NCBI GenBank assembly: GCA_017406955.1
Contig: JAFQXM010000007.1
Location: forward strand, 13,743-77,742
Direction: 5' to 3'
Origin: Bacilli bacterium
GTDB lineage: Bacteria; Bacillota_I; Bacilli_A; RF39; UBA660
Length of the DNA: 64,000 nucleotides
The notes below the pieces were generated by a model. That model was not told the origin of the DNA. It worked only from the letters and a program-made list of their open reading frames with translations, and searched no databases. The stretch's first letter is position 1. Each line of letters starts with the position of its first letter. The translations under genes and the position numbers were made by a program. This document shows, piece by piece, positions 22,590 through 62,495 of the stretch.

Positions 22590-22860
22590 TCTTTCTAATG
22601 TATTAATTACATAAAAAAATTATTATAAACATAAGGACGAAATGTTCGCGGTACCACCTTATTTTATAATAATTTATATTATACACTTAAATAGTTAACG
22701 CCTATCTACGATTATACCTACATATCGATATAATAGTTCAGAAGCCATAGTTTATAAATTATTTATGTTCACTTTCACCTAGCAGAACTCTCTAAGATAA
22801 ATAGTTTTTATAAACCTCTTCATCAATACATTTCAAATATGCATTAGTATAACACAATTT
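22590..22860 (-). promoter_or_regulatory. T-box riboswitch leader (Met specifier) upstream of metG
   Basis: Minus-strand AAGGUGGUACCGCG matches the T-box consensus NGGGUGGNACCGCG. AGAGA motif and candidate AUG specifier lie upstream within a 284-nt leader. Confidence 0.6.
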
Positions 22861-34944: not shown

Positions 34945-35030
34945 AAAATAAAACGTGCACATAAAAGTTAAATGTTAAGGCTGCTATCTTCCGATTCTGA
35001 CCTGGTTCCATCACTTTTATTGCACGTATA
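34945..35030 (-). ncRNA. ffs: small (4.5S-type) signal recognition particle RNA
   Basis: Minus-strand CCAGGUCAGAAUCGGAAGAUAGCAGCC matches SRP RNA domain IV (CCAGGUCAGGUCCGGAAGGAAGCAGCC). Closed by a 13-bp helix GUGCAAUAAAAGU/ACUUUUAUGUGCAC; U-rich tail. Confidence 0.7.
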
Positions 35031-35031
35031 T

Positions 35032-50474: not shown

Positions 50475-50514
50475 TTATAATATAGTGTATAAGAATAGAA
50501 AAGAGGGTGATATT

Positions 50515-51906
50515 GTGAACGAAGAACAAAAAGAAGATGTAACATATATACATTTAGACGATATTATCCCAAATAGATTTCAACCAAGGGAAGTATTTGA
50601 TGAAAGAACTCTTAAAGAATTGGCTGTATCAATAAAAGAACATGGAGTTATACAACCAATAATAGTTAGAAATGTCAACGGAAAATATGAAATAATTGCA
50701 GGTGAAAGAAGATATAAAGCTTCAGCTTTAGCTGGTCTTACTAAAATTCCTGCAATAGTTAGAAATTTAGATGATAAAGAAACAGCAAAAATAGCTTTAC
50801 TAGAAAATTTACAAAGAAAAAATTTAAATGCTGTAGAAGAAGCTAGAACTTATCAAAAAATTTTAGAATTAGATGAAATGACACAAGAAGAATTAGCTAA
50901 AACAATGGGCAAAAGTCAATCAGCAGTAGCAAATAAAATAAGATTATTATCTTTACCAGATGAAATACAAGAAGCAGTATTAAAAGAAAAAATATCAGAA
51001 AGACATGCTAGAGCTTTATTAAATATTCCGGATCAAAATAAACAAAAAGAATTATTAAATACAGTTATAGAAAAAAGAATGCCTGTTCGTAAATTAGAAC
51101 AAAAAATAAAAGAATTATATCCTAAAGAGGAAGATAATAATAAGAATGAACCAATAGGGGAGATAGTTAGTATGGATAATAGCAATTTAGATATACCACA
51201 AACTGATGTATCTGCTACTACCACAGATTTTGTAGATAACAGTCCTTTAAAACCGTCAACAGATATAGAAGAAGAGGAAAATTCAGATTACGGAAAAATA
51301 GTTGTTGCTCCTCCAGAAGGAGAAGAAACAGAAACTCCTAAATTTATAAATTTTGGAGAAATAGATGATGATGAGGAAGGAGCAGACGAAACAGAAATAG
51401 CAAAAGATAAAAGTGAAGAGACAACAACAATAGCTGATGTTGAAGAAATAAAATCAAACTCTATAGATATAAATTCTACTCCAAAGCAAAAAACAGGATC
51501 AGATTTAGATAGTTTATTAAATATATCAGCAACACCTAATCAAAATATAGAACCTAGCAAATTTTTAACTCCTGCAGAAAGCATTGTTAAAACAGATGAT
51601 TTAAAAGAAGAAGAAAAACCAGAAGATTATTTTAAAACACCAGATTTAATAAATATAGATTTACCTGATGAAATACAAACTAAAGATACAAAAAATGTAT
51701 CAATAAAAGATTTAGAGAAAGAGGAAAATCAAACAACTATAAAAGATATATCAATTGATGGAAAATATACAATTCAAGAGGCAGTAGAGAAAGCTAGAGA
51801 ATTAGTAGGGGAAATAAATAGTAATGGGTTGAATGCTGATATGGAAGAAATGAACTTTAATAAGTCGTATCAGATAATAATAAAAATAGAAAAAGAAGTA
51901 GAATAA
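50515..51906 (+). CDS. noc: ParB/Noc-family DNA-binding protein with about 270-aa acidic low-complexity C-terminal extension
   Basis: ParB N-terminal box IAGERRYKAS plus HTH. GTG at 50515 after AGAGGGTGA RBS (track start 50485). C-terminal half is D/E/T-rich. Confidence 0.65.
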   Translation: MNEEQKEDVTYIHLDDIIPNRFQPREVFDERTLKELAVSIKEHGVIQPIIVRNVNGKYEIIAGERRYKASALAGLTKIPAIVRNLDDKETAKIALLENLQRKNLNAVEEARTYQKILELDEMTQEELAKTMGKSQSAVANKIRLLSLPDEIQEAVLKEKISERHARALLNIPDQNKQKELLNTVIEKRMPVRKLEQKIKELYPKEEDNNKNEPIGEIVSMDNSNLDIPQTDVSATTTDFVDNSPLKPSTDIEEEENSDYGKIVVAPPEGEETETPKFINFGEIDDDEEGADETEIAKDKSEETTTIADVEEIKSNSIDINSTPKQKTGSDLDSLLNISATPNQNIEPSKFLTPAESIVKTDDLKEEEKPEDYFKTPDLINIDLPDEIQTKDTKNVSIKDLEKEENQTTIKDISIDGKYTIQEAVEKARELVGEINSNGLNADMEEMNFNKSYQIIIKIEKEVE

Positions 51907-53869: not shown

Positions 53870-55465
53870 ATGAATGAAAAAAGAAAATTAAAATTAAAGA
53901 AATTTTATTTTCATCCCATTACAGTATTTCTGTTTTTAACAGTATTAATAATTATACTAAGTGCTATATTATCTGGATTTCAGATGCAGGCAACTTATAA
54001 TACAGTAAATAATAATACTGGAGAACTAGAACCAACATTAGTAGCGGTAGAAAATATGCTTAGTTTTGATGGTATGAAATTTATAATAAGTAATGCAACC
54101 AAAAACTTTATAAGTTTTGCACCACTTGGTACATTATTAATATCATTAATAGGATTAACAATAGCAGAAGCAAGTGGGTTGATTGAAACTTTTAGTAAAA
54201 GATATTTAAAAAAAAGATCAAAATATATATTAACTTTTTTAGTTTTATTTATAGCAACCATATCATCATTAATAAATGAGGTAGGGTATGCAATATTAAT
54301 TCCATTAATAGCACTAATATATTTTATTAATGGAAGAAATCCAATATTAGGTATTGTAACAGCTTTTTGTGGTGTTGCCTTTGGATATGGAGTTACATTG
54401 TTTGTAGGATCAATGGAAATTTCATTAATGGATTATACGCAAAATGCAGCTGTATTAATAGATGAAAATATACATATAGCTTTAACATCAAATCTAATTT
54501 TTATAATAGTAACATCAATAGTAACATCAATAGTTGGAACCTTTATAATAGAAAAAATAATAGCTCCAAAAATTGGTAAATATAAAAGAGAAGATGAATT
54601 TGCTAAAACAGAACAATATAGAGTCATTAATTTAGAAGAAGAAGAGCAAAGACAAATTGAACAAGAAAAATACGAAAAGAGGGGTTTAAGATCTGCTTTA
54701 ATAATAGCAATCGTTATTATACTAATATTTGCGTATATGCTAATACCAAACCTTCCTTATTCCGGAATGTTGTTAGATATGAATCAAAAAACATACTTAT
54801 CTCAACTGTTTGGAGAAAAATCATATTTTCAAGATGGATTTACATTTATGATAGCTCTATTATTCTTGTTTACAGGAATTGCCTATGCAATAAGCTCTAA
54901 ATCAATAAAAAATGATAAGGATTTAATAGAAAAAGCAGGAGCCTATTTTAATAAAGTCAGTTATATATTTATATTAATGTTTGTAGTATCACAATTTATA
55001 GCAATCTATAAACATACAAATATAGGTATAATAATAGCTTCATGGTTAGCTAATTTATTATCAATACTTAAATTTAATGGTATACCACTAATAGTAGTTA
55101 CATTATTACTAATTGCAATTGCAAACTTATTCTTAACCAGTCCAACAACTAAGTGGATGATATTTTCACCAATAGTAGTTCCAATGTTTATGCAATCAAA
55201 TATATCACCACAATTTGCACAAATAGTAATGAGAGTAGGAAACTCCATAACTAATGGATATACTCCAATACTTGCGTCATTTGTAATATATATTGGTTAT
55301 TTAAATTTATATAACTTAAACAAACAAAAACCAATAACTATTAGAAAATCCTTAAAAATGTTAACTCCATACTTCCTAATAATGGGGGCAACGTGGATAT
55401 TATTAATAATTGGTTGGTACATAATAGGTCTACCAGTTGGACTAGGAGTATTCCCGACATTATAA
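53870..55465 (+). CDS. AbgT-family (p-aminobenzoyl-glutamate/antimetabolite) transporter, putative
   Basis: 531 aa polytopic; N-terminal FHPITVFLFLTVLIIILSAILS resembles the AbgT N-terminal pattern. Confidence 0.5.
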   Translation: MNEKRKLKLKKFYFHPITVFLFLTVLIIILSAILSGFQMQATYNTVNNNTGELEPTLVAVENMLSFDGMKFIISNATKNFISFAPLGTLLISLIGLTIAEASGLIETFSKRYLKKRSKYILTFLVLFIATISSLINEVGYAILIPLIALIYFINGRNPILGIVTAFCGVAFGYGVTLFVGSMEISLMDYTQNAAVLIDENIHIALTSNLIFIIVTSIVTSIVGTFIIEKIIAPKIGKYKREDEFAKTEQYRVINLEEEEQRQIEQEKYEKRGLRSALIIAIVIILIFAYMLIPNLPYSGMLLDMNQKTYLSQLFGEKSYFQDGFTFMIALLFLFTGIAYAISSKSIKNDKDLIEKAGAYFNKVSYIFILMFVVSQFIAIYKHTNIGIIIASWLANLLSILKFNGIPLIVVTLLLIAIANLFLTSPTTKWMIFSPIVVPMFMQSNISPQFAQIVMRVGNSITNGYTPILASFVIYIGYLNLYNLNKQKPITIRKSLKMLTPYFLIMGATWILLIIGWYIIGLPVGLGVFPTL

Positions 55466-55490
55466 AATACCTAAATGGTATTTTTTATTT
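55466..55490 (+). terminator. terminator after abgT-like gene
   Basis: AATACC-TAAA-TGGTATT hairpin followed by a T6 run. Confidence 0.6.
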
Positions 55491-55952
55491 GAATATAGAT
55501 AATACTTTTACAGTGTTCTTTGGAGGAATATTTTTCTTATATTTATCAACATTATTAAATAAATAACTCAATTTTATAATGTTTTTTCTAATAATGTTTT
55601 TATCTGAAATTGACAGATCATTACCTACTTTAATAGATTTTCTATATTTTGAAGGACTAACACCGATAATCTTATGAAACATTTCACAAAAATACTCTTG
55701 CGACGAAAAACCTGCATCAAGAGATGTTTTAAGTATACTATCATTAGTGTTTCTAATTTTTTTTAATGACAGGAAAATTCGTTTAGTATTAATATAATCT
55801 ATGATAGTGATATTTATTTCTTTTTTAAACAATCTCATAATATAGTCTTTATTATATTTAAAAAAATTAGATATTTCATTAATAGAGATTTGCGTATATA
55901 GGTTATTATCTAAATAATTTAATATATTTATCACTAGATCATTAGAAAACAT
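55485..55952 (-). CDS. AraC/XylS-family transcriptional regulator, DNA-binding domain only (MarA/SoxS-like)
   Basis: Double HTH: ISINEISNFFKYNKDYIMRLFKK and ...SLDAGFSSQEYFCEMFHKIIGVSPSKYR. ATG 55952 preferred, GTG 55979 alternative. No ligand-binding domain. Confidence 0.65.
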   Translation of the reverse strand: MFSNDLVINILNYLDNNLYTQISINEISNFFKYNKDYIMRLFKKEINITIIDYINTKRIFLSLKKIRNTNDSILKTSLDAGFSSQEYFCEMFHKIIGVSPSKYRKSIKVGNDLSISDKNIIRKNIIKLSYLFNNVDKYKKNIPPKNTVKVLSIFK

Positions 55953-55968
55953 ATAATCACCACACTTA

Positions 55969-56025
55969 TATAATAACACAAAAAGTCGTTATTGTTTAAA
56001 AAATATAAAAACAAGTGTTATTATA
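55969..56025. promoter_or_regulatory. divergent promoter region bracketed by perfect 11-bp inverted repeat TATAATAACAC / GTGTTATTATA
   Basis: Left arm at 55969..55979 and right arm at 56015..56025, 35 bp apart, between the AraC-like and T4CP-like genes. Confidence 0.5.
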
Positions 56026-56046
56026 TTTGTGAAAGGAGGAAAAAGT

Positions 56047-57324
56047 ATGAGTTATGCAAGATGGGCAACTAAAGAAGAGTTGTTAAGCAAGTTAGAGAAA
56101 GTAGAGGTAAATAAGAAAATAGATAAATCAGGAATACCGCTAGCATATGAAGAAAACAACTTATATATTGATAATAATGTATCACATAATTTAGTAATTG
56201 GTTCAACAGGTAGTGGAAAAACACAAACAACTATCCTTCCAATGATAAATTTAGCTATTTCTGCTAAAGAATCTATTGTTGTAAATGATCCGTTAGGAGA
56301 ATTATATGAAATAAACAAAGAAAAGTTACAAAAAGAGGGATATGAAGTAGCAGTTTTAAACTTTAATAAACCTGATTCTGGAATATCATGGAATCCATTA
56401 GATATACCACAAAAACTGTATGATAATGGTGATAAAGATAAAGCAAGCAAGATGATAGAGGATATAGCATATTATATATTCACAGACACATCAAGAAAAG
56501 AAGTAGATCCATTCTGGGTTAATTCCACTATTAATTATTTTACAGGACTAACACTATATTTGTTTGAAAATTCTAAAGAAAACATAAATCTATTAAGCCT
56601 AATAGATTTAAAAGAACAAATTGAAAAAGAAGGATCTAAAAAATTTATAGAAAAAATAGATAAAAATTCAGTAGTATATAAAAATTTATCAAGTATTTTA
56701 CTTGCACCACCTGAGACAAGAGGAAGTATATTATCTGTATTTACTGTAAAAATAAAAAATTATATATCAAGAGAAAAAATAAACAACATGTTATCTAATA
56801 GTAGTTTTGATATAAAATCAATTAATAAAAAACCAACTGCTTTTTATATAATTAGTGATAAATATTCTTTTGGTAATTCTTTAATACCTTTATTAATTAA
56901 TCAAATAATTGATTCTATTTCACTAGAAAAAGAAAACAACATAAGAGTAAATATATTCTTAGATGAATTTGACTTTCTAGTACCAATTAAAGATTTTTCA
57001 AGATTAATAGAGTATACAAGAAGATTTAATGTAAGAATAACTGCAGTAATTAAGAGTTATACTCATTTATATAACATGTATACAAAAGAAGAAGTAGAAT
57101 TATTAAAAATGTGTTTTGGTAATATAGTATATTTGTTGTCTAATGATATTTATACTCTAGAAGAAATATCTAGGCAATGTGGTAATAAATCAAGTAAAAA
57201 AGAACCGTTAATTACACCAGAAGAACTAAAAACATTAGATATATATGAAGCAATAATTTTAATGCCTAGAATGATGCCAATAAGAACAAAATTATTACCA
57301 AATTATGAAATAAATTGGGATTAA
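56047..57324 (+). CDS. VirD4/TraG-type type IV coupling protein (T4CP)-like ATPase, soluble, lacking N-terminal TM anchor
   Basis: SYARWATKEEL (T4CP ARWA motif); Walker A GSTGSGKTQTTILPMINL...SIVVNDPLGELYE; Walker B IFLDEFDFL; C-terminal RFNVRITAVIKSY block. ATG 56047 after AAAGGAGGA RBS. Confidence 0.7.
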   Translation: MSYARWATKEELLSKLEKVEVNKKIDKSGIPLAYEENNLYIDNNVSHNLVIGSTGSGKTQTTILPMINLAISAKESIVVNDPLGELYEINKEKLQKEGYEVAVLNFNKPDSGISWNPLDIPQKLYDNGDKDKASKMIEDIAYYIFTDTSRKEVDPFWVNSTINYFTGLTLYLFENSKENINLLSLIDLKEQIEKEGSKKFIEKIDKNSVVYKNLSSILLAPPETRGSILSVFTVKIKNYISREKINNMLSNSSFDIKSINKKPTAFYIISDKYSFGNSLIPLLINQIIDSISLEKENNIRVNIFLDEFDFLVPIKDFSRLIEYTRRFNVRITAVIKSYTHLYNMYTKEEVELLKMCFGNIVYLLSNDIYTLEEISRQCGNKSSKKEPLITPEELKTLDIYEAIILMPRMMPIRTKLLPNYEINWD

Positions 57325-57326
57325 TA

Positions 57327-57355
57327 AAAACATCAATAAGATGTTTTTATTTTAT
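57327..57355 (+). terminator. terminator after T4CP-like gene
   Basis: AAAACATC-AATAA-GATGTTTT hairpin followed by a T-run. Confidence 0.65.
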
Positions 57356-61142: not shown

Positions 61143-62495
61143 ATGCCAATAAAAACATTACCAAACAATATAGAAGCAGAACAATCAGTATTAGGATCAT
61201 GTTTTCTATCAAAATATGCATTACAAAAAGCATGTGAAACATTAACGCCTGATTCTTTTTATAGTGATAAAAACGGTAAAATTTTTGCGGCTATGAATGC
61301 TTTAGTAGATGAAAAGACACCAATAGATATAACTACTATTACTAGTTATTTAAAAAACAACAAACAATTAACAGAAGTAGGAGGCGTAGAATATTTAACA
61401 GAAATATTAAACTTTGTACCTACCGCTAGTAACATAGATTATTATATAAAAGATGTAGAAGATACATACATACTTAGAAATTTAATAGAAACCGCAACAG
61501 ATATCGCATCAGATGGATATAAAACAGACGAATCAGTAAATGAGATATTAGATAATTCTGAAAAGAAAATTTTAAATATAGTAAAAAATAGAAGAACAAG
61601 TGAATTTAGAAGTATTAAAGATATTCTAAAGAAAACACAAGAAGATTTAGAAAAATTATCAGAAAGTACAGGGGAAGTAACAGGACTTTCAACAGGTTTC
61701 TATGATCTAGATAAAATAACTACAGGGTTACATGAAAATGAACTTATAATTATTGCGGCTAGACCTGCTATGGGTAAAACTGCATTTGCCTTAAATCTTG
61801 CGACACATATTGCTATGTCACAAGATAAATCAGTTGCTTTATTTAACTTAGAAATGAGTGCTGAACAATTAGCACAAAGAATAATATCTTCTCTAGGACA
61901 ACTAGAAGGATATAAATTAAGAACTGGTAATTTAATGAATAATGATTGGAAAAGAGTTAATGAAGCAGTTTCACAACTTGCTACTACCAATATGGTTATA
62001 GATGATACACCAGGTATTACAATAGGGGAAATAAGAGCTAAATGTAGAAGACTTGCAAGTTCAGAAAATGGATTAAGCGTTGTAATAATTGATTATTTAC
62101 AATTGATTTCAGGCGGAAAGAACTATGGTGCTAATAGACAACAAGAAGTATCAGACATATCAAGAAGTTTAAAAACATTAGCTATGGAGTTAGGTGTACC
62201 AGTAATTGCTTTATCACAATTATCAAGAAGTGTTGAGTCTCGCGAAGATAAAAGACCACTGATGAGCGATTTACGTGAATCAGGATCTATTGAACAAGAT
62301 GCAGATATAGTAGCTTTCTTGTATAGGGATGATTACTACAATAAAGAAGCAAGAACTGATGATAATAATAGTATTAGTGAGCTTATAATAGGAAAGCATC
62401 GTAATGGACCAACCGCAACAATAGAATTACTATTTAAGAAAAACACATCTAAATTTTTAAATCTAAAAAAAGAAAATAGAAAGACGGAGGAATAA
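61143..62495 (+). CDS. dnaB: replicative DNA helicase (DnaB family; DnaC in B. subtilis nomenclature)
   Basis: Walker A AARPAMGKTAFALNLA, H4 motif, arginine finger; 450 aa. Confidence 0.9.
   Translation: MPIKTLPNNIEAEQSVLGSCFLSKYALQKACETLTPDSFYSDKNGKIFAAMNALVDEKTPIDITTITSYLKNNKQLTEVGGVEYLTEILNFVPTASNIDYYIKDVEDTYILRNLIETATDIASDGYKTDESVNEILDNSEKKILNIVKNRRTSEFRSIKDILKKTQEDLEKLSESTGEVTGLSTGFYDLDKITTGLHENELIIIAARPAMGKTAFALNLATHIAMSQDKSVALFNLEMSAEQLAQRIISSLGQLEGYKLRTGNLMNNDWKRVNEAVSQLATTNMVIDDTPGITIGEIRAKCRRLASSENGLSVVIIDYLQLISGGKNYGANRQQEVSDISRSLKTLAMELGVPVIALSQLSRSVESREDKRPLMSDLRESGSIEQDADIVAFLYRDDYYNKEARTDDNNSISELIIGKHRNGPTATIELLFKKNTSKFLNLKKENRKTEE

What the first reader, a model, noticed from the sequence alone, without database searches (positions are those of the whole stretch)
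55485..57355. Orphan soluble VirD4/TraG-type coupling-protein ATPase paired with a MarA-like AraC regulator in the core oriC neighbourhood
The 425-aa product of 56047..57324 carries the diagnostic motifs of type IV coupling proteins: the ARWA-type N-terminal box (SYARWATKEEL), Walker A GSTGSGKTQTTILPMINL followed by SIVVNDPLGELYE, Walker B IFLDEFDFL, and a C-terminal RFNVRITAVIKSY block. It lacks the N-terminal transmembrane anchor of conjugative T4CPs and is about 200 aa shorter. No relaxase, VirB4, channel genes, integrase or att repeats are nearby. It is transcribed divergently from a 155-aa AraC-family gene that has only the double-HTH domain (MarA/SoxS-like). The shared 94-bp control region is bracketed by a perfect 11-bp inverted repeat (TATAATAACAC ... 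GTGTTATTATA). Both ends of the pair are insulated by strong terminators, between abgT-like and ychF, where B. subtilis carries unrelated yya genes. A T4CP-like NTPase without a secretion channel suggests a non-conjugative role, for example a DNA/NTP-dependent defence or DNA-processing function, and I do not recognise this two-gene module as a described system.
Basis: partly seen in the sequence, partly recalled or inferred. Interest (0 to 1): 0.75.

Follow-up and report, generated by a model that had tools for sequence, protein, structure and literature searches.

The report
Soluble coupling-protein ATPase with dedicated MarA-like regulator
A membrane-anchor-less copy of the ATPase that normally feeds DNA or proteins into a type IV secretion machine sits on the chromosome of uncultured gut Bacilli, always next to a small MarA-like regulator and a conserved operator; the pair is conserved and undescribed, and its cellular job is unknown.

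Summary
Window 56047-57324(+) encodes a 425-aa type IV coupling protein (T4CP) homologue: Pfam T4SS-DNA_transf E 6.7e-44, and an AF2 model that matches Cagbeta and TrwBdeltaN70. It has no transmembrane segment. A 155-aa MarA-like double-HTH protein with an extra C-terminal helix is encoded divergently at 55485-55952(-).

The pair is not a decayed ICE and not a one-off.
- All 43 soluble homologues in the genome and metagenome loci first fetched keep the divergent regulator. So do three of four members fetched later; in the fourth the upstream gene is cut and unchecked.
- A sister group keeps the regulator in a T4CP->AraC operon.
- Flanks are housekeeping genes that differ between lineages.
- The core TTGTTTAA of an asymmetric 18-bp box (AAAG[TC]C[GA][TC]T[AT]TTGTTTAA) is present in all 48 loci checked, centred near -42 of an extended -10 promoter of the ATPase gene. 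This is a class II activator layout.

In a distance tree the soluble proteins form their own clade. Their closest relatives (39-42% identity) are membrane-anchored T4CPs of a conserved, relaxase-less, Mycoplasma-ICE-like chromosomal T4SS in the same bacteria. No defence-system signature was found.

Best reading: an activator-switched, exapted cytoplasmic T4CP paralogue, probably an accessory to that T4SS. Its function remains inferred.

The parts
55485..55952 (-). MarA/SoxS-like AraC-family regulator, 155 aa. It comprises a double-HTH domain (about residues 1-108), a long conserved C-terminal helix (115-140) and a basic tail.
   Evidence: Pfam HTH_18 3.4e-15. NCBIfam aligns it full-length to SoxS and RamA, below cutoffs. 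AF2 pLDDT 87.9. Foldseek matches MarA 1BL0, SoxS and Rob. It is adjacent to the soluble T4CP in all 43 loci first fetched.
55982..55999 (+). Conserved asymmetric operator box AAAGTCGTTATTGTTTAA, the putative binding site of the MarA-like protein. The core TTGTTTAA is at 55992-55999.
   Evidence: The core is present in 46/46 aligned loci, 53-61 nt before the T4CP ATG, and also in L089 and L091. The degenerate pattern hits once per soluble-type locus; across the anchored-type loci it hits once, inside a gene of L048. It occurs once in the window.
56016..56024 (+). Extended -10 (TGTTATTAT) of the T4CP promoter. The box centre lies about -40.5 from the inferred start.
   Evidence: Promoter scan. 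Spacing between TTGTTT and the extended -10 is 22-23 nt in most loci; the 18-nt calls of a further 12 loci read as 23 nt by eye.
55970..55978 (-). Extended -10 of the regulator's own promoter. Its -35 (TAAACA, 55993-55998) lies inside the box core.
Evidence: Promoter scan.
56033..56039 (+). Ribosome-binding site AAGGAGG of the T4CP gene.
   Evidence: Sequence. AAAGGAG is conserved in the aligned loci.
56047..57324 (+). Soluble (TMD-less) type IV coupling protein paralogue, 425 aa. It has a nucleotide-binding domain plus an all-alpha domain, with Walker A and B intact.
   Evidence: Pfam T4SS-DNA_transf 6.7e-44, TrwB_AAD_bind, TraG-D_C. AF2 pLDDT 86, pTM 0.88. Foldseek matches Cagbeta 8DOL at 1.5e-18 and TrwBdeltaN70. 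No TM segment. It falls in a monophyletic soluble clade.
57323..57351 (+). Terminator-like AU-rich hairpin plus U-run after the T4CP gene.
   Evidence: -10.5 kcal/mol, z -4.3.
55464..55484 (.). Bidirectional hairpin between the convergent abgT and regulator genes.
   Evidence: -7.1 and -6.9 kcal/mol on the two strands.

Best explanation
This is a vertically inherited, chromosomal two-gene module found in uncultured, AT-rich gut Bacilli.

**Regulation (inferred from conserved anatomy).** The MarA-like protein binds as a monomer to the conserved asymmetric 18-bp box. The box sits at about -42 of an extended -10 promoter that lacks a properly spaced -35. From there the protein switches on the ATPase gene as a class II activator. 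In the divergent arrangement the same box covers the -35 of the regulator's own promoter, which would give autorepression. In the operon arrangement of the sister group it would give positive feedback.

**The product (identity shown, activity inferred).** The product is a catalytically intact, cytoplasmic T4CP-family protein: nucleotide-binding domain plus all-alpha domain, without the two TM helices and without the acidic C-terminal tail. In the available searches its closest relatives are the membrane-anchored coupling proteins of a conserved, relaxase-less, Mycoplasma-ICE-like chromosomal T4SS of the same bacterial group. Whether it arose by duplication of that gene is not resolved.

**Most likely job (inference).** It serves as a conditionally expressed accessory to that T4SS. 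It could be an alternative substrate receptor, docking the way TMD-less TraJ of pIP501 does. Alternatively it could be a soluble competitor or modulator of the anchored T4CP. No sensor domain or second regulator accompanies the pair, so the regulator's conserved C-terminal helix may receive feedback from the ATPase itself.
For: **T4CP identity.** Shown by profile and fold.

**Truncation point.** The soluble protein starts exactly at the GYSRWA motif that follows TM2 of the anchored paralogues.

**Conserved pairing.** The regulator is paired in all 43 soluble-type loci first fetched and in L086, L087 and L091, down to 34% identity. In L085 the upstream gene is cut and unchecked. The sister group has a co-directional arrangement.

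**Operator and promoter.** The box is conserved at a fixed distance from the ATG and the extended -10. The promoter geometry in the window fits. The regulator has the MarA fold plus an extra helix.

**Phylogeny.** The soluble clade is monophyletic in a distance tree. Anchored T4CPs are the nearest relatives at 39-42% identity.

**Anchored paralogue.** It lies in a VirB6 / split-VirB4 / hydrolase cluster.

**Co-occurrence.** Three MAGs carry both types: L020/L056, L016/L048 and L011/L081. Two of them share the window's abgT-pair-ychF synteny. In L014 the pair lies about 8.5 kb from genes that flank the T4SS elsewhere.

**Precedent.** TMD-less T4CPs that work with a T4SS are a known class (PMC7431656, PMC12857230).
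Against: - No physical linkage to the T4SS was seen in any of the soluble-type loci.
- No adjacent small membrane protein is present that could act as an anchor.
- The box was not found in the T4SS loci, so co-regulation is not shown.
- Genome-wide co-occurrence could not be measured. The window itself has no T4SS, and the rest of its genome is not available to me.
- The anchored type is far more abundant (at least 7480 clusters versus 1767), so most T4SS carriers manage without the soluble copy.
- DNA binding, activation, ATPase activity and oligomerisation are all untested.
- The NJ tree is midpoint-rooted, so 'derived from the anchored paralogue' is not proven.
Confidence: 0.45

Rival explanations
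1. The module acts independently of any T4SS. The soluble hexameric ATPase acts on cytoplasmic DNA or nucleoprotein, for example against incoming conjugative or phage DNA or in DNA processing, and the AraC protein is only its switch.
For: The pair is never linked to T4SS genes. There is a weak similarity to PADLOC mad8 and to HerA-type defence ATPases. Patescibacteria also carry many T4CP homologues far from virB4 whose role is unknown (PMC12102498).
Against: No defence-family hit rises above P-loop level. There is no nuclease or other effector partner. Flanks are housekeeping genes, not defence islands. Synteny blocks are stable within lineages and the protein is strongly conserved, unlike typically patchy defence genes. 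No close relatives occur on plasmids (best 28%) or in phage records (best 28%).
Confidence: 0.22
2. The HTH protein is more than a regulator. It is a sequence-specific DNA adaptor for the ATPase, analogous to the relaxosome accessory proteins TrwA and TraM. Those proteins bind next to their own genes, autoregulate, and recruit or stimulate the T4CP. On this reading the box would be a loading site.
For: Adjacency survives a change of gene order (divergent versus operon), which is typical of physically interacting partners. The regulator has a conserved extra helix and basic tail beyond the MarA domain. The T4CP keeps the TraG-D_C region. TrwA-TrwB and TraM-TraD behaviour is established knowledge, not tested here.
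Against: Only one box was found per locus, and always at promoter geometry, which plain transcriptional control fully explains. No relaxase or nick site is evident. No interaction prediction could be run.
Confidence: 0.15
3. The ATPase is the sensor and the regulator is the output, in a partner-switching circuit. Free T4CP sequesters the regulator's C-terminal helix. Engagement of the T4CP with substrate or the T4SS releases it. This would resemble the type III secretion circuits built on AraC-type activators (InvF/SicA, MxiE/IpgC, ExsA).
For: The pair has no ligand-binding domain and no second regulator. The C-terminal helix is conserved. The top structural match is a T4CP solved with a small protein regulator, CagZ (8DOL, entry title only).
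Against: This is purely inferential. The only target seen for the box is the pair itself, so no downstream regulon is known.
Confidence: 0.12
4. The pair is a decaying remnant of an integrative conjugative or mobilisable element.
For: The family is conjugative in origin. The best NCBIfam match is the CD1115 conjugative T4CP family. One locus (L001) has an integrase about 2 kb away.
Against: There are 1767 or more intact homologues, with invariant Walker motifs and 66% mean column identity. The partner and operator are conserved. No relaxase, VirB4 or att repeats are present. The neighbourhoods are housekeeping genes.
Confidence: 0.03

Closest known systems
TraJ of pIP501, the class of T4CPs without a transmembrane domain (Llosa & Alkorta classification, cited in PMC7431656; PMC12857230)
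   Same: VirD4-type nucleotide-binding plus all-alpha domains with no N-terminal TM helices. This is a plausible model for how a soluble T4CP can still serve a Gram-positive T4SS.
   Different: TraJ is encoded inside the tra operon next to its membrane anchor TraI, the relaxase and the channel genes. The window protein is chromosomal, unlinked to any T4SS, and paired with an AraC-family regulator and a conserved operator.
Membrane-anchored T4CP of the conserved chromosomal T4SS in the same bacterial group (loci L043-L084)
   Same: Closest relatives found, at 39-42% identity over the whole soluble protein. The GYSRWA start motif, Walker motifs and all-alpha domain are shared.
   Different: It has two N-terminal TM helices and a 120-390-aa charged tail ending in an acidic FFDDFFDN. 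It lies inside a VirB6 / split-VirB4 / hydrolase cluster, has no AraC partner and no box, and is more conserved (60-77% between species).
TrwB (R388), VirD4 and Cagbeta, the structural paradigms
   Same: Same fold: Foldseek E 1e-18 to 1e-14, TM 0.6-0.72.
   Different: Only 15-18% identity. Those proteins are membrane-anchored and encoded with their T4SS. The profile match to TrwB by sequence alone is weak (4e-6).
NCBIfam NF045973, VirD4-like conjugal transfer protein of the CD1115 family
   Same: Best curated profile, at 183.9 bits. The closest plasmid-borne relatives belong to this family.
   Different: The score is below the 250-bit cutoff. Plasmid members are about 28% identical, about 650 aa with an N-terminal extension, and sit between a MobP3 relaxase and VirB6/VirB3/VirB4 genes.
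T4CP homologues encoded far from virB4 in Patescibacteria (PMC12102498)
   Same: Chromosomal T4CP homologues are unlinked to the T4SS, in reduced-genome bacteria whose relaxase-less T4SS appears co-opted for a non-conjugative role.
   Different: The phylum is different. No conserved AraC partner or operator is reported there, and sequence relatedness to this clade was not examined.
MarA / SoxS / Rob-N, the AraC-family activators made of the DNA-binding domain alone
   Same: Double-HTH fold (MarA 1BL0, 29% identity, rmsd 2.4 A over 99 residues). There is no ligand domain. The asymmetric box of about 18-20 bp at a class II position fits monomer binding.
   Different: It is below every equivalog cutoff. 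It carries an extra 26-residue helix and a basic tail. The box sequence is not a marbox. The only target seen is the neighbouring ATPase gene, not a stress regulon.

Membership tests
Type IV coupling proteins (VirD4/TraG/TrwB; Pfam PF02534) | P-loop nucleotide-binding domain with Walker A and Walker B of the FtsK/HerA-related T4CP type | tested here: met
   Pfam T4SS-DNA_transf 150.9 bits against a cutoff of 20.1. G52, T54, G55, G57, K58, T59 and D306, E307, F308 are invariant in 24 homologues.
Type IV coupling proteins (VirD4/TraG/TrwB; Pfam PF02534) | All-alpha domain inserted in the nucleotide-binding domain | tested here: met
   TrwB_AAD_bind 59.6 bits. The model has helices 119-260. Alignments to TrwBdeltaN70 and Cagbeta span about 400-500 columns, TM 0.6-0.72.
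Type IV coupling proteins (VirD4/TraG/TrwB; Pfam PF02534) | N-terminal transmembrane anchor (canonical VirD4-type members) | tested here: not met
   No hydrophobic segment was found; the anchored paralogues have two. The absence holds throughout the clade, with N-extensions of 5 residues or fewer. TMD-less T4CPs are nevertheless an accepted subclass (PMC7431656).
Type IV coupling proteins (VirD4/TraG/TrwB; Pfam PF02534) | Encoded with a T4SS channel and/or a relaxase | tested here: not met
   Window neighbours are parAB, DUF951, abgT, ychF, rpsF, ssb and rpsR. No T4SS homologue is in the 64-kb window. No soluble-type locus has VirB4 or VirB6 within 10 kb.
Type IV coupling proteins (VirD4/TraG/TrwB; Pfam PF02534) | Hexameric ATPase that recruits substrates to a T4SS | not testable with these tools
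   Only a monomer model could be made. No interaction or activity data exist.
NCBIfam NF045973 conju_CD1115 (equivalog) | Score at or above the curated cutoff of 250 bits | tested here: not met
   183.9 bits.
MarA/SoxS/Rob-type AraC-family activators | Two helix-turn-helix motifs in one domain of about 100 aa, with no N-terminal sensor or dimerisation domain | tested here: met
   HTH_18 and HTH_AraC hits. Alignment to SoxS covers 2-106 of 107 positions. The fold matches MarA, SoxS and Rob. There is an extra C-terminal helix at 115-140.
MarA/SoxS/Rob-type AraC-family activators | Monomer binding to an asymmetric box of about 20 bp placed at or near -35 (class II) or upstream (class I) | tested here: inconclusive
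   A conserved asymmetric 18-bp box is centred about -40 to -42 of an extended -10 promoter. Binding itself was not tested, and the sequence is not a marbox.
MarA/SoxS/Rob-type AraC-family activators | Equivalog-level identity to MarA, SoxS, RamA or Rob | tested here: not met
   51-59 bits against cutoffs of 174-250 (380-426 for Rob).
Known anti-phage defence systems (PADLOC-DB 2.0) | Significant match of either protein to a defence-system model, with the system's other genes nearby | tested here: not met
   Only mad8 at 26 bits and HerA at 17-19 bits for the ATPase, and nothing for the regulator. No other MADS or HerA-partner genes are nearby.
Integrative conjugative or mobilisable element | Integrase or DDE recombinase, relaxase, and flanking att repeats | tested here: not met
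   None of these genes was found in the window neighbourhood or in the other loci, except an integrase about 2 kb away in L001. Flanking att repeats were not searched for. Flanks differ between lineages while the pair stays intact.

The most novel reading that the evidence does not exclude
The pair may be a self-contained cytoplasmic device that no longer needs a secretion channel. In this reading, a T4CP-derived hexameric motor is recruited to, or controlled through, a sequence-specific MarA-like partner via the partner's conserved C-terminal helix. Either the ATPase state gates transcription (partner switching) or the HTH protein loads the motor on DNA at the box. This would be the first exaptation of a coupling protein into a regulator or DNA-motor module outside conjugation and secretion.
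Probability: 0.3. Interest if true: 0.75.

Novelty: new variant of a known kind. Interest (0 to 1): 0.55.

Why it matters
Coupling proteins are studied almost only as gatekeepers of conjugation and effector secretion.

- **What is new here.** A large clade (1767 or more protein clusters, about 40 species-level genomes) has lost the membrane anchor, left the T4SS locus, and acquired a dedicated activator and operator. This arrangement has been kept across gene-order changes and down to 34% identity.
- **Where it occurs.** It lives in abundant but uncultured gut and rumen Bacilli with small genomes. These bacteria also keep a relaxase-less, apparently vertically inherited T4SS.
- **What it could show.** Working out the pair would show either how such a T4SS is fed and controlled, or how a conjugation ATPase can be re-used for a cytoplasmic task.
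- **Testability.** The operator-regulator-ATPase triad is small and well defined, so it can be tested directly in a heterologous host.

Tried and rejected
1. **Defence system.** PADLOC gave only P-loop-level hits, and the contexts are not defence islands.
2. **ICE or IME remnant.** Rejected on conservation and on the lack of relaxase, integrase or VirB4.
3. **Inverted repeat as operator.** The perfect repeat is unique to the window, and its arms are the two extended -10 boxes.
4. **Box as shared signal with the T4SS cluster.** No box was found at any gene start in the 40 anchored-type loci; the one hit lies inside a gene of L048. Hits of a shorter pattern lie inside the T4CP coding sequence. 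The far upstream end of the cluster is cut in most loci.
5. **Further regulon members in the window.** There is only the one site; a 3-mismatch hit at 61235 is at chance level.
6. **Phage or plasmid carriage.** The best plasmid relatives are 28% identical conjugative T4CPs, and phage records are at most 28% identical. One IMG/VR contig carries the pair at its very end.
7. **Same-contig co-occurrence of the soluble and anchored types.** I tried matching the 'longest contig' lengths of the two protein lists; there was no match among the 120 anchored proteins listed.
9. **Literature.** Three full-text searches and three papers consulted for orphan or soluble T4CPs, or for RF39 with T4SS, found no description of this pair.
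10. **Terminator scan.** The GC-based rule found nothing. Folding shows AU-rich hairpins instead.
11. **Rfam.** There is no structured RNA in or near the pair.
Full report
**1. The observation**

- Window 56047-57324(+) gives a 425-aa protein with all the quoted motifs.
- ATG 56047 is the true start. An AAGGAGG lies 7 nt upstream, and every homologue begins MSYARW.
- The divergent gene 55485-55952(-) gives a 155-aa protein.
- The spacer is 94 bp.
- The inverted repeat exists at 55969-55979 / 56015-56025 and can be extended to 17 nt at 88%.
- The hairpins at both ends are real but AU-rich: -10.5 and about -7 kcal/mol. A GC-based terminator rule does not call them.

**2. What the proteins are**

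*The ATPase.*
- It hits Pfam T4SS-DNA_transf (E 6.7e-44), TrwB_AAD_bind and TraG-D_C.
- The best curated NCBIfam model is the conjugative CD1115 VirD4-like family, but below its cutoff (183.9 against 250 bits).
- An AlphaFold2 model built on 24 homologues is confident (pLDDT 86, pTM 0.88).
- Its best PDB matches are the cytoplasmic parts of T4CPs: Cagbeta 8DOL (E 1.5e-18, TM up to 0.72) and TrwBdeltaN70. HerA, VirB4 and DndH come well behind.
- It has no hydrophobic segment.

*The regulator.*
- It is an AraC-family double-HTH protein.
- It aligns end to end with SoxS and RamA, below their cutoffs.
- Its model (pLDDT 88) superposes on MarA, SoxS and Rob-N.
- It carries an additional 26-residue helix (115-140) and a basic tail, both conserved in the family.

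**3. It is a conserved module, not an accident**

- The ATPase has 1767 or more homologous clusters. The best 120 are all 425-460 aa and start at the same motif.
- A scan of one genome per GTDB species returned 80 loci, which fall into two sharply separated types.
- *Type A* (44-55% identity, 420-470 aa, soluble). In all 43 such loci first fetched, the MarA-like gene lies divergently about 90-120 bp upstream. The flanks differ:
  - the oriC-proximal abgT...ychF site of the window in L004, L006, L008, L013 and L016, with L009 and L011 showing its ychF side;
  - gltX in L007, L010, L019 and L020 (and nearby in L018);
  - a radical-SAM neighbourhood in L001, L003 and L005;
  - tig in L014.
- L042 has parA-parB-abgT-ychF contiguous, with the pair 3.6 kb away.
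- Members at 34% identity still have the divergent partner, one of them in a spore-former context. A member at 36% (L085) keeps the box, but its upstream gene is cut and was not checked.
- A sister group keeps the same two genes in a co-directional T4CP->AraC order. The gap is 3 nt in L089, so this is an operon.
- None of these loci has VirB4, VirB6, a relaxase or, with one nearby exception (L001), an integrase.
- The pair is absent from plasmids and phages except as remote (28% or less) conjugative relatives. One IMG/VR contig carries it at its end.

**4. The control region**

Aligning the spacers shows one conserved element: an asymmetric box AAAG[TC]C[GA][TC]T[AT]TTGTTTAA.
- Its core TTGTTTAA is present in 46/46 aligned loci and lies 53-61 nt before the ATPase ATG.
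- It is also present in the operon-type locus L089 and in L091.
- The degenerate pattern hits once per type A locus. Across the other 40 loci it hits once, inside a gene of L048. It occurs once in the 64-kb window.
- An extended -10 (TGnTAnnAT) follows about 20 nt after the core. This puts TTGTTT 22-23 nt from the -10 hexamer, which is too far for it to act as the -35. The automated scan gives 22-23 nt in 28 loci and picks an alternative hexamer at 18 nt in 12 more, which by eye share the 23-nt geometry.
- The box centre therefore falls at about -40 to -42.
- That is the geometry of a class II, MarA/SoxS-type activator site. This comparison rests on established knowledge, not on a test here.
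- In the window the + promoter is TTTAAA-18-TGtTATTAT (55995-56024). The regulator's own promoter is TAAACA-17-TGtTATTAT (55998-55970), and its -35 lies inside the box core.
A perfect repeat of 10 nt or more is found only in the window.
- Inference: the regulator activates the ATPase gene and represses itself. In the operon variant the same site would give positive feedback.

**5. Where the ATPase comes from**

*Type B* loci (38-42% identity to the window protein) encode 690-940-aa proteins.
- They carry two N-terminal TM helices directly followed by ...DKGYSRWAKDKEI..., the motif with which the soluble proteins begin.
- They have a charged C-terminal extension ending in an acidic FFDDFFDN.
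- They sit in a strongly conserved cluster: VirB6/TrbL-like, a VirB4 split into about 185-aa and 596-aa ORFs, a SpoIID-domain hydrolase, the T4CP, and DUF6273. The best VirB4 model is the Mycoplasma ICE Mbov_0397 family.
- The cluster is followed in most loci by rhodanese, DedA, RmuC, trpS and rhomboid, with no relaxase or integrase in view.
- These T4CPs are 60-77% identical between species and extremely abundant, with at least 7480 clusters.
- In a neighbour-joining tree of 218 cores, the soluble, AraC-linked proteins form one clade of 75 leaves, all with N-extensions of 5 residues or fewer. The anchored chromosomal ones form another clade. The root is a midpoint root only, so the direction of descent is not settled.
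- Three MAGs contain both types: L020/L056, L016/L048 and L011/L081. The last two share the window's synteny.
- In L014 the pair lies about 8.5 kb from the genes that flank the T4SS elsewhere.
- The window itself has no T4SS gene.

**6. Mechanism**

*Shown:* T4CP fold with intact catalytic motifs; no anchor; obligatory adjacency to a MarA-fold protein; a conserved box at fixed promoter geometry; no mobile-element or defence context; closest relatives are the anchored T4CPs of a chromosomal T4SS in the same bacteria.

*Inferred:*
- The regulator binds the box and switches on the ATPase gene.
- The ATPase is a conditionally expressed cytoplasmic paralogue that works with, or on, that T4SS. It may act as an alternative receptor, as TMD-less TraJ of pIP501 does (PMC7431656, PMC12857230), or as a soluble competitor.
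- The pair has no sensor domain and no second regulator. The regulator's extra helix is therefore the likeliest input, possibly from the ATPase itself.

*Rivals:* a T4SS-independent DNA motor or defence role; an adaptor role of the HTH protein like TrwA or TraM; a partner-switching circuit; an ICE remnant. The last is contradicted by the conservation data. The others cannot be separated without genome-wide co-occurrence data, interaction predictions or experiments.

**7. Comparison with what is known, and novelty**

- The protein is a member of the T4CP superfamily by domains and fold. It fails two features of canonical members, the anchor and T4SS/relaxase linkage, and it fails the CD1115 equivalog cutoff.
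- TMD-less T4CPs are a recognised class, and T4CP homologues far from virB4 are reported in Patescibacteria (PMC12102498).
- 'Soluble orphan T4CP' is therefore not new in kind.
- I could not find three things described in the three full-text searches or the three papers I consulted: the monophyletic chromosomal clade, its strict coupling to a MarA-like protein in two gene orders, and the conserved operator.
- I rate it a new variant of a known kind with moderate-to-good interest (0.55). It would rate higher if the T4SS-independent reading proves right.

Noticed in passing
Loci L043-L084 (e.g. L053 15-15272): A conserved chromosomal T4SS cluster occurs in the same group of uncultured Bacilli. 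Its order is VirB6/TrbL-like, small ORF, VirB4 split into about 185-aa and 596-aa ORFs (nearest model: Mycoplasma ICE Mbov_0397 family, below cutoff), SpoIID-domain hydrolase, 256-aa ORF, two-TM T4CP with an acidic FFDDFFDN tail, and DUF6273. In most loci it is followed by rhodanese, DedA, RmuC, trpS and rhomboid. No relaxase or integrase lies within 10 kb. The T4CP is 60-77% identical between species and has at least 7480 protein clusters. It looks vertically inherited and co-opted, like the Patescibacteria T4SS.
   Followed up: partly
L088 8001-10221 and L089 5710-7572: A sister group of the soluble T4CP has the AraC gene downstream on the same strand (3-nt gap in L089). The same box lies upstream of the T4CP in L089, and a variant of it in L088. 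The flanks are housekeeping genes, between a MiaB-like radical-SAM gene and others.
   Followed up: partly
L014 6994-20203: Here the soluble pair sits between trigger factor and a 771-aa gene. It is about 8.5 kb from the trpS/c15/c18 block that borders the T4SS cluster in other genomes. This suggests the two T4CP paralogues can lie within about 10-20 kb of each other.
   Followed up: no
window 50485-51906 (+): A 473-aa ParB_N + HTH_ParB protein is encoded just upstream of parA/parB. If it is a Noc-like second ParB, it is unusually long.
   Followed up: no
window 22630-22835 (-) and 34946-35031 (-): A T-box leader (109 bits) and the small SRP RNA (57 bits). These are the only Rfam hits in the window.
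   Followed up: no
L001 370-5804: In one locus the pair lies about 2 kb from a Fic / UvrD_C_2 / DUF2290 / integrase block, possibly an island. This is not seen in the other loci.
   Followed up: no
L091 5418-6951: The only IMG/VR 'viral' contig with the pair carries it, with the box, at the very end of a 29.7-kb contig. It is probably host flank or a misbinned contig rather than a phage gene.
   Followed up: partly
L085 1768-2121; L086 7268-7558; L087 1979-2269: In the most divergent members, a small ORF of 96-117 aa with no Pfam hit directly follows the soluble T4CP. It may be a lineage-specific third component.
   Followed up: no
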